Shown here piece by piece: positions 59,143-64,000 of a stretch of 64,000 bases of DNA. Location: the NCBI GenBank assembly GCA_964493895.1, contig CAZBPY010000003.1:102146-166145 (forward strand), written 5' to 3'. Both the position numbers and the translations under genes were made by a program. Positions within the stretch are counted from its first letter, which is position 1; each line of letters starts with the position of its first letter. The DNA is from an uncultured Candidatus Saccharibacteria bacterium. GTDB lineage: Bacteria; Patescibacteriota; Saccharimonadia; Saccharimonadales; JAGQNJ01. The notes below the pieces were generated by a model, which saw nothing but the letters and a program-made list of their open reading frames with translations, was not told the origin of the DNA and did not search any database.

Positions 59143-59219
59143 GTCGGTGTAGCTCAGTTGGTTAGAGCGCAGGACTCATAAGCCTGAGGTCGTAGGTTCA
59201 ATTCCTACCACCGACACCA
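59143..59219 (+). tRNA. tRNA with CAT anticodon (elongator Met or lysidine-modified Ile2), CCA encoded
   Basis: Acceptor gtcggtg/caccgac fully paired, so not an initiator. Anticodon loop ctCATaa. Confidence 0.85.
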
Positions 59220-59259: not shown

Positions 59260-59409
59260 TTAACCGGAGCTGCGGCCGCCCTTGCGCCCAGCGCTGCGAG
59301 CCCGGTCCGGGTCATTTTTGAAATTACCGCTGCTGGCTCGTCCGCCCATAGCCGCAATTTCCCGCACCCGCTTCTTACTCATTGATGCAAATCCTCTTTT
59401 TCCTGGCAT
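59260..59409 (-). CDS. KGG-repeat stress-induced small protein (49 aa)
   Basis: Below the track's 60-aa cutoff. Hand translation: MPGKRGFASMSKKRVREIAAMGGRASSGNFKNDPDRARSAGRKGGRSSG. SD aaggaggg lies 4 nt upstream. Confidence 0.7.
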   Translation of the reverse strand: MPGKRGFASMSKKRVREIAAMGGRASSGNFKNDPDRARSAGRKGGRSSG

Positions 59410-59684
59410 GCTCCCTCCTTAGCTTCTTGGTAAGCCTAATAATAGCCCGCCGATTCCCAAGCGCGCTGTGAATTAATTAACTCAATATAGGCGGCCCAGG
59501 CGATTTTAGCCGAAAATCACCTTATCAATGTCTATAATCCGCTGGTCGGCGGTTTCGATTGTTTCATATTCTAGATCTGTCATGGTGATGCCCTTTGTTT
59601 TACTGTTTGTTTGCTTTACAGCTGCATATTATTATACACATTTTTGTATATTTAGCAAGTACTTTTTGTGCGATATTTTCCTCA

Positions 59685-59736: not shown

Positions 59737-59811
59737 CGCGGGGTGGAGCAGCGGCAGCTCGCGTGGCTCATAACCACGAGGTCGCAGGTTCGAGTCCTGC
59801 CCCCGCAACCA
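59737..59811 (+). tRNA. Initiator tRNA-fMet(CAT), CCA encoded
   Basis: cgcgggg...ccccgcaacca with a C1-A72 mismatch. Close to the E. coli initiator sequence as I recall it. Confidence 0.9.
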
Positions 59812-59832
59812 GATTGGACACCCAACAGAGAT

Positions 59833-59864
59833 AGACCGGTTCCCTAGACCGGTCTTCTTTATTT
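59833..59864 (+). terminator. Terminator after tRNA-fMet
   Basis: agaccgg/ccggtct stem followed by a T-rich tract. Confidence 0.55.
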
Positions 59865-59889
59865 ACTTCTTACAAGCTCTCCCCCGTTC

Positions 59890-59906
59890 GCTAGTTCGAG
59901 TCTAGC
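59890..59906 (+). other. Orphan tRNA T-arm-like hairpin resembling the 3' end of tRNA-fMet
   Basis: gctag-ttcgagt-ctagc followed by cccc. Compare ttcgagtcctgcccccgca in the tRNA. An inverted partial copy ggctcgaacc lies at 59926-59935. Confidence 0.5.
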
Positions 59907-60198
59907 CCCCTTTAGGATAATTAACGGCTCGAACCGCCCTGTTTGTTGTTAAAGCGACTCTCATCTTCTTGGGTGGTTCCATCTGTGTCCACTCCTTATA
60001 TAGGGATTGGACACCTCAGAACCTGACCGGGTTCCATGACCCCGACAGTTTGAGGCTAGACTTGCTAAGCATAAGTATTTGTGATATTGTATTGGACATG
60101 AAAGCAATTTCACTATCAGCACAGAACTTTTTTATGGTCTCAACAACAGGAGGCCTTGCTAACTTTACGCAATAAACTTAAGCAAACAACACAATCAC

Positions 60199-60221
60199 AA
60201 GCCTCCGAACGGAGGCTTTTT
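60199..60221 (+). terminator. Rho-independent terminator 22 nt upstream of the PheRS-like gene
   Basis: aagcctcc-gaac-ggaggctt followed by TTTTT. Confidence 0.75.
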
Positions 60222-60243
60222 AAATGTAACCAGGAGAAACACC

Positions 60244-61380
60244 ATGAAAATGTACATAAAACCATTAACCAAACAAAAGCTAGCTGAGTATCTGGCATTG
60301 CCAGATTTAACCCAGCCCGGGCAAGAGCATGCGGTGGGCATGCTCTATCAGAGAATTGAAAACCAAATGAAAGCTTCACATCCTGAGTCGGATGTCCAGG
60401 TGCATCGGAAGAACCCGATCGTATTGGTGACCGACAACTATGACCGATTGCTGATTAGTTCCGATAATATTAGTCGTTCCTCGACATATACGCACTACGT
60501 AGATCAAACACATATATTGCAAACGCATACATCGGCTCAGATTCCAGCGTTACTGAAAGCATTGGCTAAAGATTCATCTTGGGACGATGTAGTATTGCTC
60601 CTACCTGGGCTTGCCTATCGGCGCGATGTAACAGATAAGAAGCATGTTGGCCAAGTGCATATGCTGGAGATGTGGCGAATCGTCAGAAATGGCAAACGCA
60701 AAAAGATCGTTAAAGATGATCTTTTGAAGATTGTGCATGATGTAGCGAATGTAGCAGCACCCGGATGGCGTCTACGAATCATTGACTCCCCTCACCCCTA
60801 CACACGAGGCGGCATTGAAGTCAACGCAGTTCAGGGCGACCGAGATATCGAAATCTTGGAATGTGGCCTCATTAACGACCAGATTTTGAAGAATGCCGGC
60901 TTAAACCCTAAAGAATATTCGGGGTGGGCGCTCGGTATGGGACTCGATCGTTTAGTAATGACCCTGAAAGATATTCCAGATATTCGTTATCTGCGCTCCA
61001 AAAACCCTAAGATTGCGGCGCAAATGAAAGATCTAGAACTTTACAAGGAAGTTTCGAACCAGCCAGCCATACAACGCGACATGTCGTATAGCGTACCTCA
61101 GGAGTATGTTGAGGAAGACGTGAGTGAGGAAATTCGTGAATCGCTCGGCAGTTATGCAGATGTGCTTGAAAGTGTTGAGATTCTAGGCGAAACACTATAT
61201 GCGAAGCTGCCCGACATTGCTCGAACAAAGTTAGGTATAAAGCCAGGCCAGAAAAACATACTAGTACGTGTTACGCTCAGGCATCTTGAGAAAACACTAA
61301 CAAAACAGGACGCAAACAATATGTATAAACGCATATATAGCCATGTAAATTATGGCTCAGCGGGCTATTTGTGGTGGTGA
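60244..61380 (+). CDS. Single-chain PheRS-like class II aminoacyl-tRNA synthetase core fused to a C-terminal FDX-ACB-like domain
   Basis: SD aggag. Motif 2-like LAYRRDVTDKKHVGQVHMLEMW. Motif 3-like GWALGMGLDRLVMTLKDIPDIR. The C-terminal roughly 95 aa begin PAIQRDMSYSVP and include LVRVTLRHLEKTLTKQD. Confidence 0.7.
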   Translation: MKMYIKPLTKQKLAEYLALPDLTQPGQEHAVGMLYQRIENQMKASHPESDVQVHRKNPIVLVTDNYDRLLISSDNISRSSTYTHYVDQTHILQTHTSAQIPALLKALAKDSSWDDVVLLLPGLAYRRDVTDKKHVGQVHMLEMWRIVRNGKRKKIVKDDLLKIVHDVANVAAPGWRLRIIDSPHPYTRGGIEVNAVQGDRDIEILECGLINDQILKNAGLNPKEYSGWALGMGLDRLVMTLKDIPDIRYLRSKNPKIAAQMKDLELYKEVSNQPAIQRDMSYSVPQEYVEEDVSEEIRESLGSYADVLESVEILGETLYAKLPDIARTKLGIKPGQKNILVRVTLRHLEKTLTKQDANNMYKRIYSHVNYGSAGYLWW

Positions 61381-61386
61381 GGAGGT

Positions 61387-62286
61387 CTAGCTAATGTTTT
61401 CTGACTCCCACTCTAACCATTCATCGACGACTTTGGGTAACTCTTTTGTCTGCATCAACGGTTTGCCACGAGAAGACCGAGCATAGCCCAGTTTCCAGAC
61501 TACATTCCTAATATCTTCGATGATCACAAAGGCGGCTACAGCTTGTTCATCTTCTTGGCTAAACTCCCTAACAGAGCGGTAGCCTTCAAGCCATGTCTTG
61601 AATCTATCCTCTGCAGCTTTGAGTACACCCCACGGCTCTGCAGCTCGCCAAGACTTAGCCGCACTATCAAAATCAAAAACAACCAACTTACCATCATGCA
61701 AGTGCACGTTATCAAGCGTTAAATCGTTATGGATAATTCCATAGTTGAGCTTTGGATTACTTACAATCTTTCGCATACGCTCGGTCAGATCAAATACTCT
61801 TTGCCACTCGCCACTTTCTTCTAAAGGTTTCTTCATCCGTTTAAGCTGATCGTCGAAAAGTTCGTGTTTATCAAACTCTTCACGAGGTAAGTCTGACGTA
61901 AACGTATCGGCAGCATTGTGTATGCGAGCAGCCGCTTCTCCAATTAAAGTATAGGTACTAAGTTCTGGTTTGGGTTTTTCGCCTGGTGCCCACTCAAACA
62001 AAACAGCGACTCGATCTTGTTCATCAATACTAAACGTCTGTAAGTAGTTACCGTCTGTACCAGCAACAAGTTGAGCGACTGGAGCACCGTTTTCAATGAG
62101 GTGCAGTGTTAGATCAACCTCCCACTGTATTTCTCCAGACTTTCGGGCAGTTGCGTTATACACCTTCAAGGCAAAGTGCCCGTCAGAAGTCACCACTTCA
62201 TACGAATCGTTAGCCAGAGTATTAAGGTTCTTACACTTTGGGTTTGCTAAACCATAGCTCTTGGTTAGTTGTTCTTCAATTGTCAT
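61387..62286 (-). CDS. APH/choline-kinase-fold phosphotransferase
   Basis: IIHNDLTLDNV (HxDxxxxN) and VVFDFDSA (DxD) motifs. Confidence 0.75.
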   Translation of the reverse strand: MTIEEQLTKSYGLANPKCKNLNTLANDSYEVVTSDGHFALKVYNATARKSGEIQWEVDLTLHLIENGAPVAQLVAGTDGNYLQTFSIDEQDRVAVLFEWAPGEKPKPELSTYTLIGEAAARIHNAADTFTSDLPREEFDKHELFDDQLKRMKKPLEESGEWQRVFDLTERMRKIVSNPKLNYGIIHNDLTLDNVHLHDGKLVVFDFDSAAKSWRAAEPWGVLKAAEDRFKTWLEGYRSVREFSQEDEQAVAAFVIIEDIRNVVWKLGYARSSRGKPLMQTKELPKVVDEWLEWESENIS

Positions 62287-62343
62287 GTACCAATAATACA
62301 GTAAAGCGTTAAGTGCTTGCTTTCGCGCCCGAATTACCTCTGT

Positions 62344-62349
62344 TATACT
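62344..62349 (+). promoter_or_regulatory. -10 box TATACT, 6 nt before ATG 62356
   Basis: gtTATACTtaaatcATG. No SD. Confidence 0.45.
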
Positions 62350-62355
62350 TAAATC

Positions 62356-62880
62356 ATGAGTGATGTTGTCGTAGGATATCCGGATATATCAAAATCTGAT
62401 TACGATTGGATCCAAAATATTCGTAAGGTACATGATAAGCAATTTAGTTTGCTCCAACCACACTTCACCTTTGTGTTCCCCACAGATAAATTACCAATTG
62501 ATGAGCTTGCGAGTCATGTCGAAGTAAGGGTTAGTGGCACGCCAGTAGTAGAATTTAAGTTGACTAAGGCGGTTGTAATAGAAGATGCTTCCAAAGCCTC
62601 TTCGTATATCTTCCTAGTGCCATCAGAAGGCAGTGACGAAATCAATAAATTACACGACGAACTTTACAAAGATAAATTAGCTAGTGAACTACGACTAGAT
62701 CTTCCTTTTATGCCCCATGTCACCATTGGAACGGGTAGTCATGAGAGTATGGAAGATCTTGCTAAAAGCCTAAATGAGCAGGGAATAAACATCGCTGGCG
62801 TCATCAGTGCTTTATCTGTTGCTAGCTATGACGGTCAGCATGTGACTGAATTTCGACGACTTGAATTGGCTAGTCAGTAG
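62356..62880 (+). CDS. 2H phosphoesterase superfamily protein (LigT / 2'-5' RNA ligase-like)
   Basis: Two HxT motifs: PHFTFVF and PHVTIGT. Confidence 0.65.
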   Translation: MSDVVVGYPDISKSDYDWIQNIRKVHDKQFSLLQPHFTFVFPTDKLPIDELASHVEVRVSGTPVVEFKLTKAVVIEDASKASSYIFLVPSEGSDEINKLHDELYKDKLASELRLDLPFMPHVTIGTGSHESMEDLAKSLNEQGINIAGVISALSVASYDGQHVTEFRRLELASQ

Positions 62881-62899
62881 GTTCAGAGCTTTAATAGGC

Positions 62900-62905
62900 T
62901 ATAAT
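62900..62905 (+). promoter_or_regulatory. -10 box TATAAT, 6 nt before ATG 62912
   Basis: ggcTATAATttaactATG. No SD. Confidence 0.45.
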
Positions 62906-62911
62906 TTAACT

Positions 62912-63571
62912 ATGAAACTCTTACTCACCTCAGCAGGCATCGTTAACGATTCTATCGCCAAAGCTCTGTTTGATATGGTTGGCAAGAAGCCAGAGGAACT
63001 GAAAGTTGCTTTTATTCCCACCGCCGCAAATGTAGAAGAGGGCAATAAGGTTGACTGGTTCTTTCGTCAGTACGAAGATTTGCGGCGAATTGGCATAACC
63101 TGGGTAGACATGGTTGATTTTGCCGATCAAGATGTAGACTGGAAAGCCCGGCTCGACGAGTGCGACGTCTTATATCTGACGGGTGGCAACACTTTCTATT
63201 TACTCGATCAGATCAGGAACCAGGGATTTGGTGATTATCTAGAGAAAGTATTGGATTCAAAGGCATATGTTGGTGGCAGTGCCAGCTCCATAACCATGAC
63301 ACCAAATATAGAAGTGGCTGCGATACCTCCGGGCGACCCCAACCTACCGGGGCTTACTGATTTAACAGGACTGAGTTATGTTGACTTTGAAATTGAGCCG
63401 CACTGTGACGAGCCACGGTTTGATACCGTCAAACAGTATTCTAAAGACCATAACAGTAAGATCTATGCTATAGACGACCAAACTGCTATTAGCGTCATAA
63501 ACGGTGAAGTATCGGTAGTTTCTGAAGGCAAGTGGGCTCTGTACGACAAAGGCTCTGCAGCTGAGGCCTAA
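62912..63571 (+). CDS. Peptidase S51 (dipeptidase E-like)
   Basis: MKLLLTSAG, LYLTGGNTFYLL and GGSASS motifs. Start taken at ATG 62912. Confidence 0.7.
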   Translation: MKLLLTSAGIVNDSIAKALFDMVGKKPEELKVAFIPTAANVEEGNKVDWFFRQYEDLRRIGITWVDMVDFADQDVDWKARLDECDVLYLTGGNTFYLLDQIRNQGFGDYLEKVLDSKAYVGGSASSITMTPNIEVAAIPPGDPNLPGLTDLTGLSYVDFEIEPHCDEPRFDTVKQYSKDHNSKIYAIDDQTAISVINGEVSVVSEGKWALYDKGSAAEA

Positions 63572-64000
63572 GCTAGCTGCAGTTGTCCATCTTTGATCTG
63601 GATCTCGTTCTTTATGCCTTTAGCTAACCACTGTTTGTCTTTTAGGTCACCGCCGTCTACAACGTATTCCGCATACTCTAATAAAGGCTTCTTGAGCCTA
63701 CCTTCAGATTTGTAGTGTTGGGCGATCACATAGTGCTTCTCAACTTTTGCTCGGAGGTCGTTAGAAAGCTTTATCTTCTCAAAGTTCTCGCCAATAAACT
63801 GCTTGAGCAGCTGTATGAGCGCCGTCTCATTCACATATTTCTCGGGACAGTGCAGGTTTATCTTTTTAGTACACCGGTAATACACATGTCGATTAAATTC
63901 GCCGCTTTTAAGTTTCTTAAACTTTTCCTCAGCTGTTACTTCGCCTCCACAGTGTCCACATTTTAACAGCCCACGAAATGCAAACTGTTTCGTGCCCCAT
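63568..64000 (-). CDS. Large serine recombinase, C-terminal part (N-terminus off window)
   Basis: The frame stays open upstream of the track's GTG to the window edge: FRGLLKCGHCGGEVTAEEKF...HVYYRCTKKINLHCPEKYV. This is the recombinase zinc-ribbon pattern followed by a coiled coil. Confidence 0.7.
   Translation of the reverse strand, partial: WGTKQFAFRGLLKCGHCGGEVTAEEKFKKLKSGEFNRHVYYRCTKKINLHCPEKYVNETALIQLLKQFIGENFEKIKLSNDLRAKVEKHYVIAQHYKSEGRLKKPLLEYAEYVVDGGDLKDKQWLAKGIKNEIQIKDGQLQLA

What the first reader, a model, noticed from the sequence alone, without database searches (positions are those of the whole stretch)
59737..64000. Putative integrated element at tRNA-fMet carrying four enzyme genes and a large serine recombinase
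From the tRNA-fMet gene to the window edge, the sequence looks AT-richer by eye. It contains tRNA-end fragments and a roughly 380-bp noncoding stretch with several hairpins. It also carries four cargo genes of unrelated function (PheRS-like, APH-fold kinase, 2H phosphoesterase, S51 peptidase). It ends with the C-terminal zinc-ribbon and coiled-coil part of a large serine recombinase that reads inward, with its N-terminus beyond 64000. This is the organisation of a genomic island or degraded prophage. Mobile elements are thought to be rare in such reduced genomes, so its extent and mobility are worth establishing.
Basis: partly seen in the sequence, partly recalled or inferred. Interest (0 to 1): 0.6.

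Follow-up and report, generated by a model that had tools for sequence, protein, structure and literature searches.

The report
Serine-recombinase gene island at tRNA-fMet
A tiny Saccharibacteria genome carries, directly behind its initiator tRNA gene, a block of rare accessory genes with an intact large serine recombinase, one member of a widespread family in ultra-small bacteria that sits at the ends of tRNA genes, sites that a 2015 survey assigned only to tyrosine integrases.

Summary
An initiator-type tRNA-Met (59737-59811) is followed by 432 nt of noncoding DNA. Then come a PheS-like ligase (SrmL family), an APH-fold kinase, a 2H phosphoesterase and an S51 peptidase. A large serine recombinase (LSR) reads toward the tRNA. 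Beyond the window the LSR is complete: 420 aa, 63568-64830, catalytic motifs present.

All eight genes between the tRNA and the next core gene (about 70925) are rare and scattered among 40 relatives. They are missing at this locus in the three same-genus genomes. Composition deviates only mildly.

In 47 of 67 related LSR loci across Patescibacteria, a tRNA gene lies within 6 kb of the LSR stop. In all 47 it is on the opposite strand. LSR clades track the tRNA type, and the nearest relatives (73-78% identical) also sit at tRNA-fMet. A conserved 250-nt noncoding module follows the tRNA. In relatives it recurs, with a 25-nt copy of the tRNA end, at cassette junctions.

This is a real island of a tRNA-anchored LSR family, not a prophage. 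Its far end is unresolved: I found no far-side tRNA repeat and no excision junction. The scan has met this family before on other DNA.

The parts
59737..59811 (+). tRNA-fMet (CAT), the anchor. The island begins immediately after its CCA end.
   Evidence: ARAGORN and Rfam. The C1xA72 mismatch was read from the sequence. Same-genus relatives share the tRNA, but homology stops at its 3' end.
59812..59823 (+). 12-nt linker (GATTGGACACCC) between the CCA end and the module. It is specific to the fMet clade of the recombinase.
   Evidence: The same linker follows tRNA-fMet only where the module is present: L113, L115 and three metagenome contigs. It is absent behind tRNA-fMet in G001-G003, G009 and G017.
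59813..60061 (+). Conserved 250-nt noncoding module. It contains a terminator hairpin (59833-59855), a T-arm-like fragment (59894-59910), several GGTTC(C/G) motifs, and a terminal site (60008-60041) that resembles the linker plus hairpin.
   Evidence: nhmmer E=5e-60, single copy in this genome. Homologous modules follow tRNA-Asn, tRNA-Gln and tRNA-fMet in relatives and recur at cassette junctions. No coding potential. No conserved RNA fold and no covariation. No Rfam match.
60244..61380 (+). Cargo 1: single-chain PheS-like ligase with a C-terminal FDX-ACB domain (SrmL family).
   Evidence: Pfam and NCBIfam NF051887, 417 bits against a cut-off of 300. Canonical pheS and pheT lie elsewhere on contig C2. 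Over the cut-off in 5 of 24 family genomes, never beside the other cargo genes.
61387..62286 (-). Cargo 2: APH-fold kinase.
   Evidence: Pfam APH, E=4.5e-23. Found in 2 of 41 genomes. The other copy (G002, 82% identical) lies in a different context.
62356..62880 (+). Cargo 3: 2H phosphoesterase (LigT / 2'-5' RNA ligase superfamily).
   Evidence: Pfam 2_5_RNA_ligase2, E=9e-18. Found in 3 of 41 genomes.
62861..63571 (+). Cargo 4: S51 peptidase (PepE/cyanophycinase-like). It overlaps cargo 3 by 20 nt and the recombinase stop by 4 nt.
   Evidence: Pfam Peptidase_S51, E=6e-26. Close homologues (49-55% identical) occur in only two other families.
63568..64000 (-). In-window C-terminal part (residues 277-420) of the large serine recombinase. 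The whole gene is 63568-64830 (L001:7568-8830).
   Evidence: Resolvase, Recombinase and Zn_ribbon_recom domains. PHROG 95 integrase, E=3e-57. Aligns to SPbeta SprA/YokA with the Y-x-R-x-S nucleophile motif (S21) and the DRMSR motif. About 45 nt upstream of the ATG is conserved in all clade members, and homology stops there.

Best explanation
The stretch is the tRNA-proximal half of an accessory island of about 11 kb. The island was built by, and still carries, a site-specific large serine recombinase (LSR) of a family widespread in Patescibacteria. Members of this family insert DNA at the 3' end of tRNA genes.

Shown here:
- The island starts right after the CCA of tRNA-fMet, with a clade-specific linker and a conserved 250-nt noncoding module.
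- It then carries four unrelated accessory enzyme genes and an intact LSR gene that converges on the tRNA.
- Past the LSR it carries four more rare genes, up to a truncated gene fragment and the promoter of the next core gene (about window-equivalent 70925).

Inferred:
- The LSR recombined an element-borne site, made of a copy of the tRNA's last 25 nt followed by the linker and module, with the genomic tRNA 3' end.
- The LSR-bearing unit (module, cargo, LSR, upstream cargo) arrived this way or is the founding unit.
- Further recombinase-less cassettes can be stacked between the tRNA and this unit, as in relatives.
- The cargo is a mosaic drawn from the lineage's accessory gene pool, not a functional operon.
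For: (1) Locus comparison. FtsH, TilS and both tRNA-Met genes are syntenic in same-genus G001-G003. After the tRNA-fMet end each genome holds different genes.

(2) Rarity. All eight genes of the block are rare and scattered among the 41 genomes searched, and no two co-occur in the same relative except AAA5 and hyp322 in G021:
- SrmL: 5 of 24 family genomes
- APH: 2 of 41
- 2H phosphoesterase: 3 of 41
- S51 close homologues: 3
- AAA5: 2 of 41
- hyp322: 2 of 41

(3) Family-wide anatomy. Of 67 related LSR loci with at least 1 kb of downstream DNA, 47 have a tRNA within 6 kb of the LSR stop. All 47 are on the opposite strand and none on the same strand. Only 2 of 74 have any tRNA upstream. The same pattern holds in 10 of 13 loci from close relatives.

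(4) Specificity. LSR clades follow the tRNA type: Ser-GGA, Ser-UGA, Gln-CUG and Asn clades (tree). The nearest relatives found (73-78% identical: L113, L115, L116, L203) all sit at tRNA-fMet with the same linker and module.

(5) Repeated capture. In L115 and L118 the module recurs 2-3 times, each internal copy preceded by a 25-nt copy of the tRNA 3' end with 0-1 mismatch.

(6) Far-side repeats in three family members. A tRNA 3'-end copy lies 2.6-7.8 kb beyond the LSR in L125, L169 and L183 (L183 is the same locus as G006). The wrong-strand control gave none. So elements can extend upstream of the LSR.

(7) Transfer. The G021 and G002b units, from different genera, are 83.5% identical in DNA from the module start through the LSR and continue at 77% through upstream genes. 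The conserved FtsH gene of genomes in these genera matches G000 at 72-74% DNA identity.

(8) The LSR is intact with its catalytic motifs.

(9) Right border. Homology with G003 and G021 upstream of the core gene hyp181 begins only about 65 nt before its start. Just to the left lies a 50-codon remnant of a gene that has a 69%-identical match over its first 45 codons in G004.

(10) Related islands carry defence cargo: a type I restriction-modification system and an AEP-TOTE gene.
Against: - No copy of the tRNA-fMet 3' end lies on the far side of the LSR, here or in L113, L115 and L116. The classical island signature is therefore incomplete and the right att site is unidentified.
- Between LSR pairs that are 85-86% identical, only the ORF and about 45 nt upstream are shared. 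The gene could therefore be a resident with cargo turnover around it.
- Composition deviates only mildly, and the right-flank core genes are just as AT-rich.
- The APH gene has an 82%-identical same-genus homologue elsewhere, so some cargo may be local rather than imported.
- No recombination directionality factor was recognised.
Confidence: 0.68

Rival explanations
1. Resident cassette-capture platform (integron-like). The LSR gene, the module and the tRNA end form a fixed chromosomal platform. Only recombinase-less cassettes, each made of a module, cargo and a 25-nt tRNA-end copy, move in and out. The LSR unit is not itself an integrated element.
For: - In arrays (L115, L118) every cassette is bounded by tRNA-end copies except the terminal LSR-bearing unit.
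- No tRNA-end copy lies beyond the LSR in the fMet clade.
- LSRs that are 86% identical share nothing but the ORF and about 45 nt upstream.
- In G036 the tRNA, module and LSR are contiguous with no cargo.
Against: - The platform is missing from the three same-genus genomes at this tRNA.
- Several genomes hold 2 copies at different tRNAs or junctions.
- G021 and G002b share an LSR unit with upstream genes at higher identity than the FtsH matches of genomes in these genera.
- Three loci have a tRNA-end repeat beyond the LSR.
- Cargo lies between the last module and the LSR, which insertion at the tRNA end into an empty platform would not produce.
Confidence: 0.22
2. An ordinary variable region produced by rearrangement and gene loss, with a solo, possibly domesticated, serine recombinase. 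The recombinase has no causal link to the four enzyme genes.
For: - Synteny in this family is poor in general. For example, the hyp181-FAD4 block lies elsewhere in G003, G009 and G017.
- The compositional signal is mild.
- A truncated gene fragment at the right border suggests deletion or rearrangement.
- The cargo genes are distributed independently of each other.
Against: - The strict tRNA/LSR geometry in 47 of 47 loci, the match between LSR clade and tRNA type, and the shared linker and module are not expected from random rearrangement.
- Tandem module and tRNA-end repeats in relatives show repeated site-specific events.
Confidence: 0.07
3. Degraded prophage integrated at tRNA-fMet.
For: - The LSR matches PHROG 95 'integrase'.
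- Nine relatives that are 45-57% identical lie on contigs of the IMG/VR viral collection.
Against: - No capsid, tail, terminase, portal, lysis or repressor gene was found in the 11 kb by Pfam or PHROGs.
- The cargo is metabolic or unknown.
- The block is small.
Confidence: 0.03

Closest known systems
Tycheposons of Prochlorococcus and other streamlined marine bacteria (bioRxiv 10.1101/2020.12.28.424599)
   Same: - Cargo-carrying integrative elements in a streamlined genome.
- They insert at tRNA genes and stack in tandem, so that newer arrivals push older ones away from the tRNA.
- They leave partial tRNA copies.
- The cargo is adaptive or defensive.
   Different: - 910 of 937 tycheposon-type elements use tyrosine recombinases, and only the rest use an LSR.
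- Here the whole family uses a short (about 420-450 aa) LSR that always converges on the tRNA.
- A conserved 250-nt noncoding module follows the tRNA end.
- No replication module was seen.
- The hosts are Patescibacteria.
Staphylococcal cassette chromosomes (SCCmec and related; CcrAB/CcrC large serine recombinases)
   Same: - LSR-driven insertion at the 3' end of a conserved housekeeping gene.
- Composite tandem arrays separated by short direct repeats.
- Some units lack their own recombinase.
- The best NCBIfam recombinase hit is CcrB.
   Different: - The CcrB score is 97 bits against a cut-off of 900, so this is not a Ccr orthologue.
- The target is a tRNA gene, not rlmH (orfX).
- There is one recombinase gene rather than a pair.
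- The junction repeat is about 285 nt (tRNA end plus module) rather than a short integration-site sequence.
Classical tRNA-integrated genomic islands (Islander signature; PMC4383910)
   Same: - An intact tRNA gene at one end.
- An integrase gene on board.
- Accessory cargo.
- Absence from close relatives.
   Different: - That paper states that only tyrosine integrases were known to target tRNA genes. Here the enzyme is a serine recombinase.
- The displaced tRNA fragment that should mark the far end is missing at this locus.
Phage and prophage large serine integrases (SPbeta SprA/YokA, phiC31, Bxb1, A118)
   Same: The same three-domain architecture and catalytic motifs. The closest solved structure is SPbeta SprA.
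   Different: - Distant in sequence (E=2e-7 to SprA).
- Shorter (420 aa against 545 for the solved SprA chain).
- There is no phage around it.
- From my own knowledge, the targets of those integrases are protein-coding or intergenic sites, not tRNA ends.
Integrons
   Same: In relatives, single-gene cassettes are stacked next to a recombinase gene and separated by a repeated recombination element.
   Different: - Integrons use a tyrosine recombinase (IntI) and folded attC hairpins.
- Here the enzyme is a serine recombinase.
- The repeat shows no conserved fold.
- The anchor is a tRNA gene.

Membership tests
Large serine recombinase (serine integrase) family | N-terminal resolvase catalytic domain with the serine nucleophile and conserved arginines | tested here: met
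   PF00239 at residues 16-160. Y17-x-R19-x-S21 and the DRMSR motif align to SPbeta SprA.
Large serine recombinase (serine integrase) family | Recombinase domain followed by a zinc-ribbon domain | tested here: met
   PF07508 at residues 185-271 and PF13408 at 285-343.
Large serine recombinase (serine integrase) family | Coiled-coil motif inserted in the zinc-ribbon domain, and attP x attB recombination activity | not tested
   No structure prediction or assay was run. The C-terminal 80 aa are conserved among clade members.
tRNA-integrated genomic island (Islander signature) | Intact tRNA gene at one end with an integrase gene inside the island | tested here: met
   tRNA-fMet at 59737-59811 and the LSR at 63568-64830. 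The integrase is of the serine type, not the tyrosine type.
tRNA-integrated genomic island (Islander signature) | Displaced tRNA 3' fragment as a direct repeat at the far end | tested here: not met
   Fuzzy searches over the 13 kb downstream found only a 15-of-17 T-arm-like piece 82 nt after the tRNA. In 3 of 50 related loci such a repeat does exist beyond the LSR.
tRNA-integrated genomic island (Islander signature) | Presence or absence polymorphism among close relatives | tested here: met
   The block was not found behind tRNA-fMet in G001-G003, which hold other genes there. No strictly empty site of the same species was available.
Tycheposon | Site-specific insertion at a tRNA gene, with tandem stacking and partial tRNA copies | tested here: inconclusive
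   Stacking with 25-nt tRNA-end copies is seen in relatives L115 and L118. This locus holds a single unit with no clean partial tRNA.
Tycheposon | Tyrosine recombinase (typical), with or without a replication module | tested here: not met
   The enzyme is an LSR. No primase, helicase or polymerase was found in the block. The paper counts the remainder of 937 elements beyond 910 (27 by subtraction) as carrying an LSR.
SCC elements (Ccr recombinases) | CcrA, CcrB or CcrC orthologue | tested here: not met
   NF047343 CcrB scores 97 bits against a cut-off of 900. CcrA and CcrC score lower.
Integron | IntI tyrosine recombinase and attC sites with a conserved hairpin | tested here: not met
   The enzyme is a serine recombinase. 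The alignment of 12 modules gives -6.4 kcal/mol and no compensatory pairs.
Prophage | Virion, packaging or lysis genes | tested here: not met
   None found by Pfam or PHROGs in the ten genes scanned.
SrmL (NCBIfam NF051887, PheS-related ligase) | Whole-protein score over the curated cut-off of the equivalog model | tested here: met
   417 bits against a cut-off of 300, covering model positions 2-347 of 349. The genome's canonical PheS scores 114 bits on this model.

The most novel reading that the evidence does not exclude
The locus is the base unit of a cassette-capture system run by a serine recombinase and analogous to an integron. In this reading a resident or semi-resident LSR uses the last 25 nt of a tRNA gene, together with a 250-nt module rich in T-arm-like GGTTC motifs, as a reusable docking site. 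Recombinase-less gene cassettes are inserted and exchanged there. This would give ultra-small CPR genomes, which lack most other routes of gene transfer, a dedicated way to sample accessory and defence genes.
Probability: 0.3. Interest if true: 0.8.

Novelty: new variant of a known kind. Interest (0 to 1): 0.6.

Why it matters
- Site-specific islands at tRNA genes are textbook, but they are attributed to tyrosine integrases. A 2015 survey states that serine integrases were not known to target tRNA genes (PMC4383910).
- This locus, with its hundreds of relatives, shows a serine-recombinase lineage doing this job throughout the Patescibacteria. These organisms have genomes below 1 Mb, where mobile DNA is assumed to be scarce.
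- The family offers a concrete handle on how these symbionts exchange accessory and defence genes.
- It could also supply compact (about 420 aa) serine integrases with predictable, conserved tRNA targets for genetic tools in organisms that currently have almost none.
- The cargo includes a single-chain PheS-like ligase of unknown function that is worth testing on its own.

Tried and rejected
- **Far att repeat.** Exact and fuzzy searches for the tRNA-fMet 3' end, and for any shared 8-mers or longer between the left junction and the two candidate right junctions, gave only chance-level matches. One example is a 10-mer around the LSR start codon, with an expected count of about 0.2.
- **Orphaned recombinase tails.** tblastn with the last 90 aa of 15 LSRs found none in this locus. 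The module has stops in all frames and no tblastx match to other LSR families.
- **The module as a structured RNA.** There is no Rfam hit, no consensus fold and no covariation.
- **The conserved stretch before the LSR start as a tRNA-mimicking att arm.** Its CCGCAA core is the same in the fMet and Asn clades, so it does not follow the tRNA. It looks more like a promoter.
- **Excision or empty-site junctions.** Four activated-sludge runs from one study hold the stretch, but only as short assembled contigs at about 5x depth. These confirm the integrated arrangement across the tRNA/module and S51/LSR joints. The only joints are between tRNA-like sequences of other organisms. This is no evidence either way on mobility.
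- **Empty sites in metagenome contigs.** A pattern specific to the left flank found nothing. A pattern of tRNA end plus linker found three contigs, all with the module.
- **The four cargo genes as a conserved cassette.** In the four other SrmL-bearing genomes the neighbours differ. No PADLOC defence model matches any gene.
- **Atlas look-up of the 322-aa unknown protein.** Only unnamed clusters came back.
- **Literature.** Searches for SrmL, and for serine recombinases at tRNA genes in Saccharibacteria, CPR or Patescibacteria, found no description of this family.

Full report
**Setting.** The window is G000:C3:102146-166145 of a 0.71-Mb, 7-contig genome that is 99.7% complete. Named relatives of its recombinase are Candidatus Saccharibacteria MAGs. 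The stretch is held by activated-sludge metagenomes. Contig C3 continues 8.7 kb past the window, and I fetched C3:158146-174801 as L001. L001 coordinates plus 56000 give window coordinates.

**Observation.** ARAGORN and Rfam place a 75-nt tRNA-Met(CAT) at 59737-59811. Its first base C faces A72, the bacterial initiator hallmark, which I read from the sequence. A second tRNA-Met lies at 59143-59219. Between the two sits a 50-codon KGG-repeat stress-protein gene on the minus strand.

After the tRNA come 432 noncoding bases, followed by:
- SrmL-type PheS-like ligase, 60244-61380, plus strand
- APH-fold kinase, 61387-62286, minus strand
- 2H phosphoesterase, 62356-62880, plus strand
- S51 peptidase, 62861-63571, plus strand
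- large serine recombinase (LSR), 63568-64830, minus strand, 420 aa, with Resolvase, Recombinase and Zn-ribbon domains

The LSR aligns with SPbeta SprA across the catalytic domain and keeps the Y-x-R-x-S and DRMSR motifs.

Composition is only mildly deviant. GC is 0.447 against a genome mean of 0.474 (4th percentile of 5-kb windows), and tetranucleotide distance is at the 97th percentile. The core genes to the right are equally AT-rich.

**Extent of the variable block.** To the right of the LSR lie:
- two tandem paralogues of unknown function (322 and 319 aa, 54% identical)
- a MoxR-like AAA+ gene
- a divergent VWA-domain gene
- about 420 noncoding bases holding a 50-codon remnant; G004 has a 69%-identical match to its first 45 codons, running off the end of the fetched locus

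The next genes, hyp181 and an FAD-binding oxidase, are present in many relatives. Alignment with G003 and G021 shows homology only from about 65 nt before the hyp181 start. The variable block is therefore 59812 to about 70925, or 11.1 kb.

On the left, MurJ, FtsH, TilS and both tRNA-Met genes are syntenic in same-genus G001-G003. Similarity ends at the tRNA-fMet 3' end, and each genome then carries other genes.

Every gene of the block is rare among the 41 genomes searched:
- SrmL: 5 of 24 family genomes
- APH: 2 of 41
- 2H phosphoesterase: 3 of 41
- close S51 homologues: 3 other genomes
- AAA+ gene: 2 of 41
- the 322-aa protein: 2 of 41

They occur in different genomes, so the cargo is a mosaic and not a conserved cassette. 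These tallies include one unpublished genome, G005. No specific claim rests on it.

**The recombinase family and its anatomy.**
- LSR matches at E <= 1e-20 occur in 22 of the 41 genomes, counting weaker matches to other LSR subfamilies. Close orthologues (46% identity or more) often occur twice per genome. G000 has a second copy 154 nt from tRNA-Gln(CUG) on contig C2.
- In 10 of 13 orthologous loci from relatives, a tRNA gene lies downstream of the LSR stop with the two 3' ends facing.
- In 80 further loci from named Patescibacteria MAGs, 47 of the 67 with at least 1 kb of downstream DNA have such a tRNA within 6 kb. All 47 are on the opposite strand, at 84-5924 nt (median 0.8 kb). Only 2 of 74 have any tRNA upstream.
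- A maximum-likelihood tree groups the LSRs by neighbouring tRNA: Ser-GGA, Ser-UGA, Gln-CUG, and an Asn/Pro/fMet/Gln-UUG group.
- The closest relatives of this LSR (73-78% identical: L113, L115, L116, and metagenome contig L203) are all next to a 75-nt tRNA-Met of the same type.

This geometry and specificity argue that the enzyme acts at tRNA 3' ends.

**The noncoding stretch.**
- Bases 59813-60061 are a 250-nt module that is single-copy in G000. It is clearly homologous to sequences directly behind tRNA-Asn (G020, G032, L118-L120), tRNA-Gln-UUG (G036) and tRNA-fMet (L113, L115, L116, L202-L204).
- It is not coding. It has no Rfam match and no conserved fold.
- Its conserved blocks are a terminator hairpin whose stem changes in a compensatory way between loci (seen by eye, not confirmed by the alignment fold), a T-arm-like piece that varies with the local tRNA, several GGTTC(C/G) motifs, and a terminal site resembling the linker plus hairpin.
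- Variable cargo always begins right after that terminal site.
- The 12-nt linker after the CCA end and the module occur behind tRNA-fMet only together. They are absent behind tRNA-fMet in G001-G003, G009 and G017. I therefore place the left end of the island at 59811/59812.
- In L115 (three modules) and L118 (two modules), each internal module is preceded by a 25-nt copy of the tRNA 3' end with 0-1 mismatch. These are successive site-specific insertions at the tRNA end.
- In those arrays the LSR-bearing unit is always the one farthest from the tRNA, and no tRNA-end copy lies beyond it.

**Where the LSR unit ends.** This remains open.

Evidence that it extends past the LSR:
- L125, L169 and L183 (L183 is the same locus as G006) have a tRNA-end copy 2.6-7.8 kb upstream of the LSR start.
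- The G021 and G002b units share upstream genes.
- In 16 of 47 loci the LSR lies less than 250 nt from the tRNA, so any cargo there must be upstream.
- In L116 and L117 the 6 kb upstream of the LSR is variable. In L116 it encodes a complete type I restriction-modification system.

Evidence for a break just upstream of the LSR:
- In every pairwise comparison homology stops about 45 nt before the start codon, after a conserved promoter-like motif.

For this locus no far-side repeat exists. I therefore report the whole 11.1-kb block as the island and the 5.1-kb stretch 59812 to about 64890 as its certain core.

**Mobility today.** The public runs that hold the stretch are kept only as low-depth contigs. 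They confirm the integrated arrangement but cannot show rare excision products. Two metagenome pattern scans yielded no empty site. Present activity is therefore untested. Evolutionary mobility of the family is supported by its patchy distribution, by multiple copies per genome, and by the G021/G002b pair.

**Function of the cargo.**
- No gene matches a PADLOC defence model or a phage structural family.
- SrmL is an extra, single-chain PheS paralogue beside the canonical pheS and pheT on contig C2.
- The four enzyme genes form at least three transcription units, judged from their strands and overlaps.
- I consider them independent accessory genes.
- The upstream AAA+/VWA pair with two paralogous unknowns recurs only in G021. 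From my own knowledge it resembles vWA-MoxR conflict systems. This was not tested.

**Comparison with the literature.**
- Islander (PMC4383910) states that only tyrosine integrases were known to target tRNA genes.
- The tycheposon preprint reports tRNA-anchored, stackable cargo elements in streamlined Prochlorococcus. Of 937 elements, 910 carry tyrosine recombinases and the rest an LSR.
- Searches for this CPR family found no description.
- Earlier notes of this scan describe the same kind of system on other contigs of this genome and in other CPR genomes. I used them as leads. The tRNA/LSR geometry and the stacked arrays were re-derived here. The 'orphaned recombinase tail' feature is not present at this locus.

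**Verdict.** This is a genuine accessory island associated with a serine recombinase at the tRNA-fMet 3' end. It is a member of a large, apparently undescribed Patescibacteria family. It is not a prophage, its right end is unresolved, and its present activity is unproven.

Noticed in passing
window 60244-61380: The PheS-like gene is a single-chain class II core plus FDX-ACB domain (SrmL family, NF051887). It is additional to the canonical pheS and pheT on contig C2. It is over the cut-off in only 5 of 24 family genomes, each time with different neighbours.
   Followed up: partly
G000:C2:200999-202503 (locus L022:9000-10528): A second large serine recombinase (54% identical) lies 154 nt from tRNA-Gln(CUG), converging on it with no cargo between. 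Its 86%-identical relative in G007 sits 3.4 kb from the same tRNA, and the two share only the ORF.
   Followed up: partly
L001:8999-14502 (window-equivalent 64999-70502): Two tandem paralogous genes (322 and 319 aa, 54% identical, no family), a MoxR-like AAA+ gene and a divergent VWA gene. Among 41 genomes the cluster recurs only in G021, on short contigs. It may be a vWA-MoxR type conflict system.
   Followed up: partly
L001:14787-14936 (window-equivalent 70787-70936): A 50-codon remnant: an ORF that stops after 50 codons. G004 has a 69%-identical match to its first 45 codons, about 1 kb from another serine recombinase and running off the end of the fetched locus. The remnant ends where homology to the hyp181 promoter begins and marks the right border of the variable block.
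   Followed up: partly
window 59263-59412 (minus strand): A small KGG-repeat stress-protein gene (Pfam PF10685, E=5e-17) lies between the two tRNA-Met genes. The default 60-aa ORF cut-off would miss it.
   Followed up: yes
L020:205-500, L018:7070-7400, L106 (G001, G002, G017 behind tRNA-fMet): In relatives without this recombinase, the tRNA-fMet 3' end plus a terminator is repeated about 170-190 nt downstream. This gives miniature units bounded by tRNA-end copies, possibly scars or empty cassettes of another element family.
   Followed up: no
L102:4318-8282 (G021:C2): In G021 the same core pair hyp181-FAD4 abuts a different recombinase: a serine-recombinase ORF of about 586 aa, 39% identical over the aligned part. 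It converges on tRNA-Leu(UAG). The hyp181 upstream region is therefore an island border there too.
   Followed up: no
L116:2211-7922 and L115:12250-14364: Islands of the nearest recombinase relatives carry defence cargo. One has a complete type I restriction-modification system directly upstream of the recombinase. Another has an AEP-TOTE primase-helicase gene as one cassette.
   Followed up: partly
L094:6097-6149 (G007): A partial 5' copy of tRNA-Gln(CUG), about 50 nt at 85% identity, lies 130 nt upstream of the intact gene. This is a duplication on the 5' side, unlike the 3'-end copies seen elsewhere.
   Followed up: no
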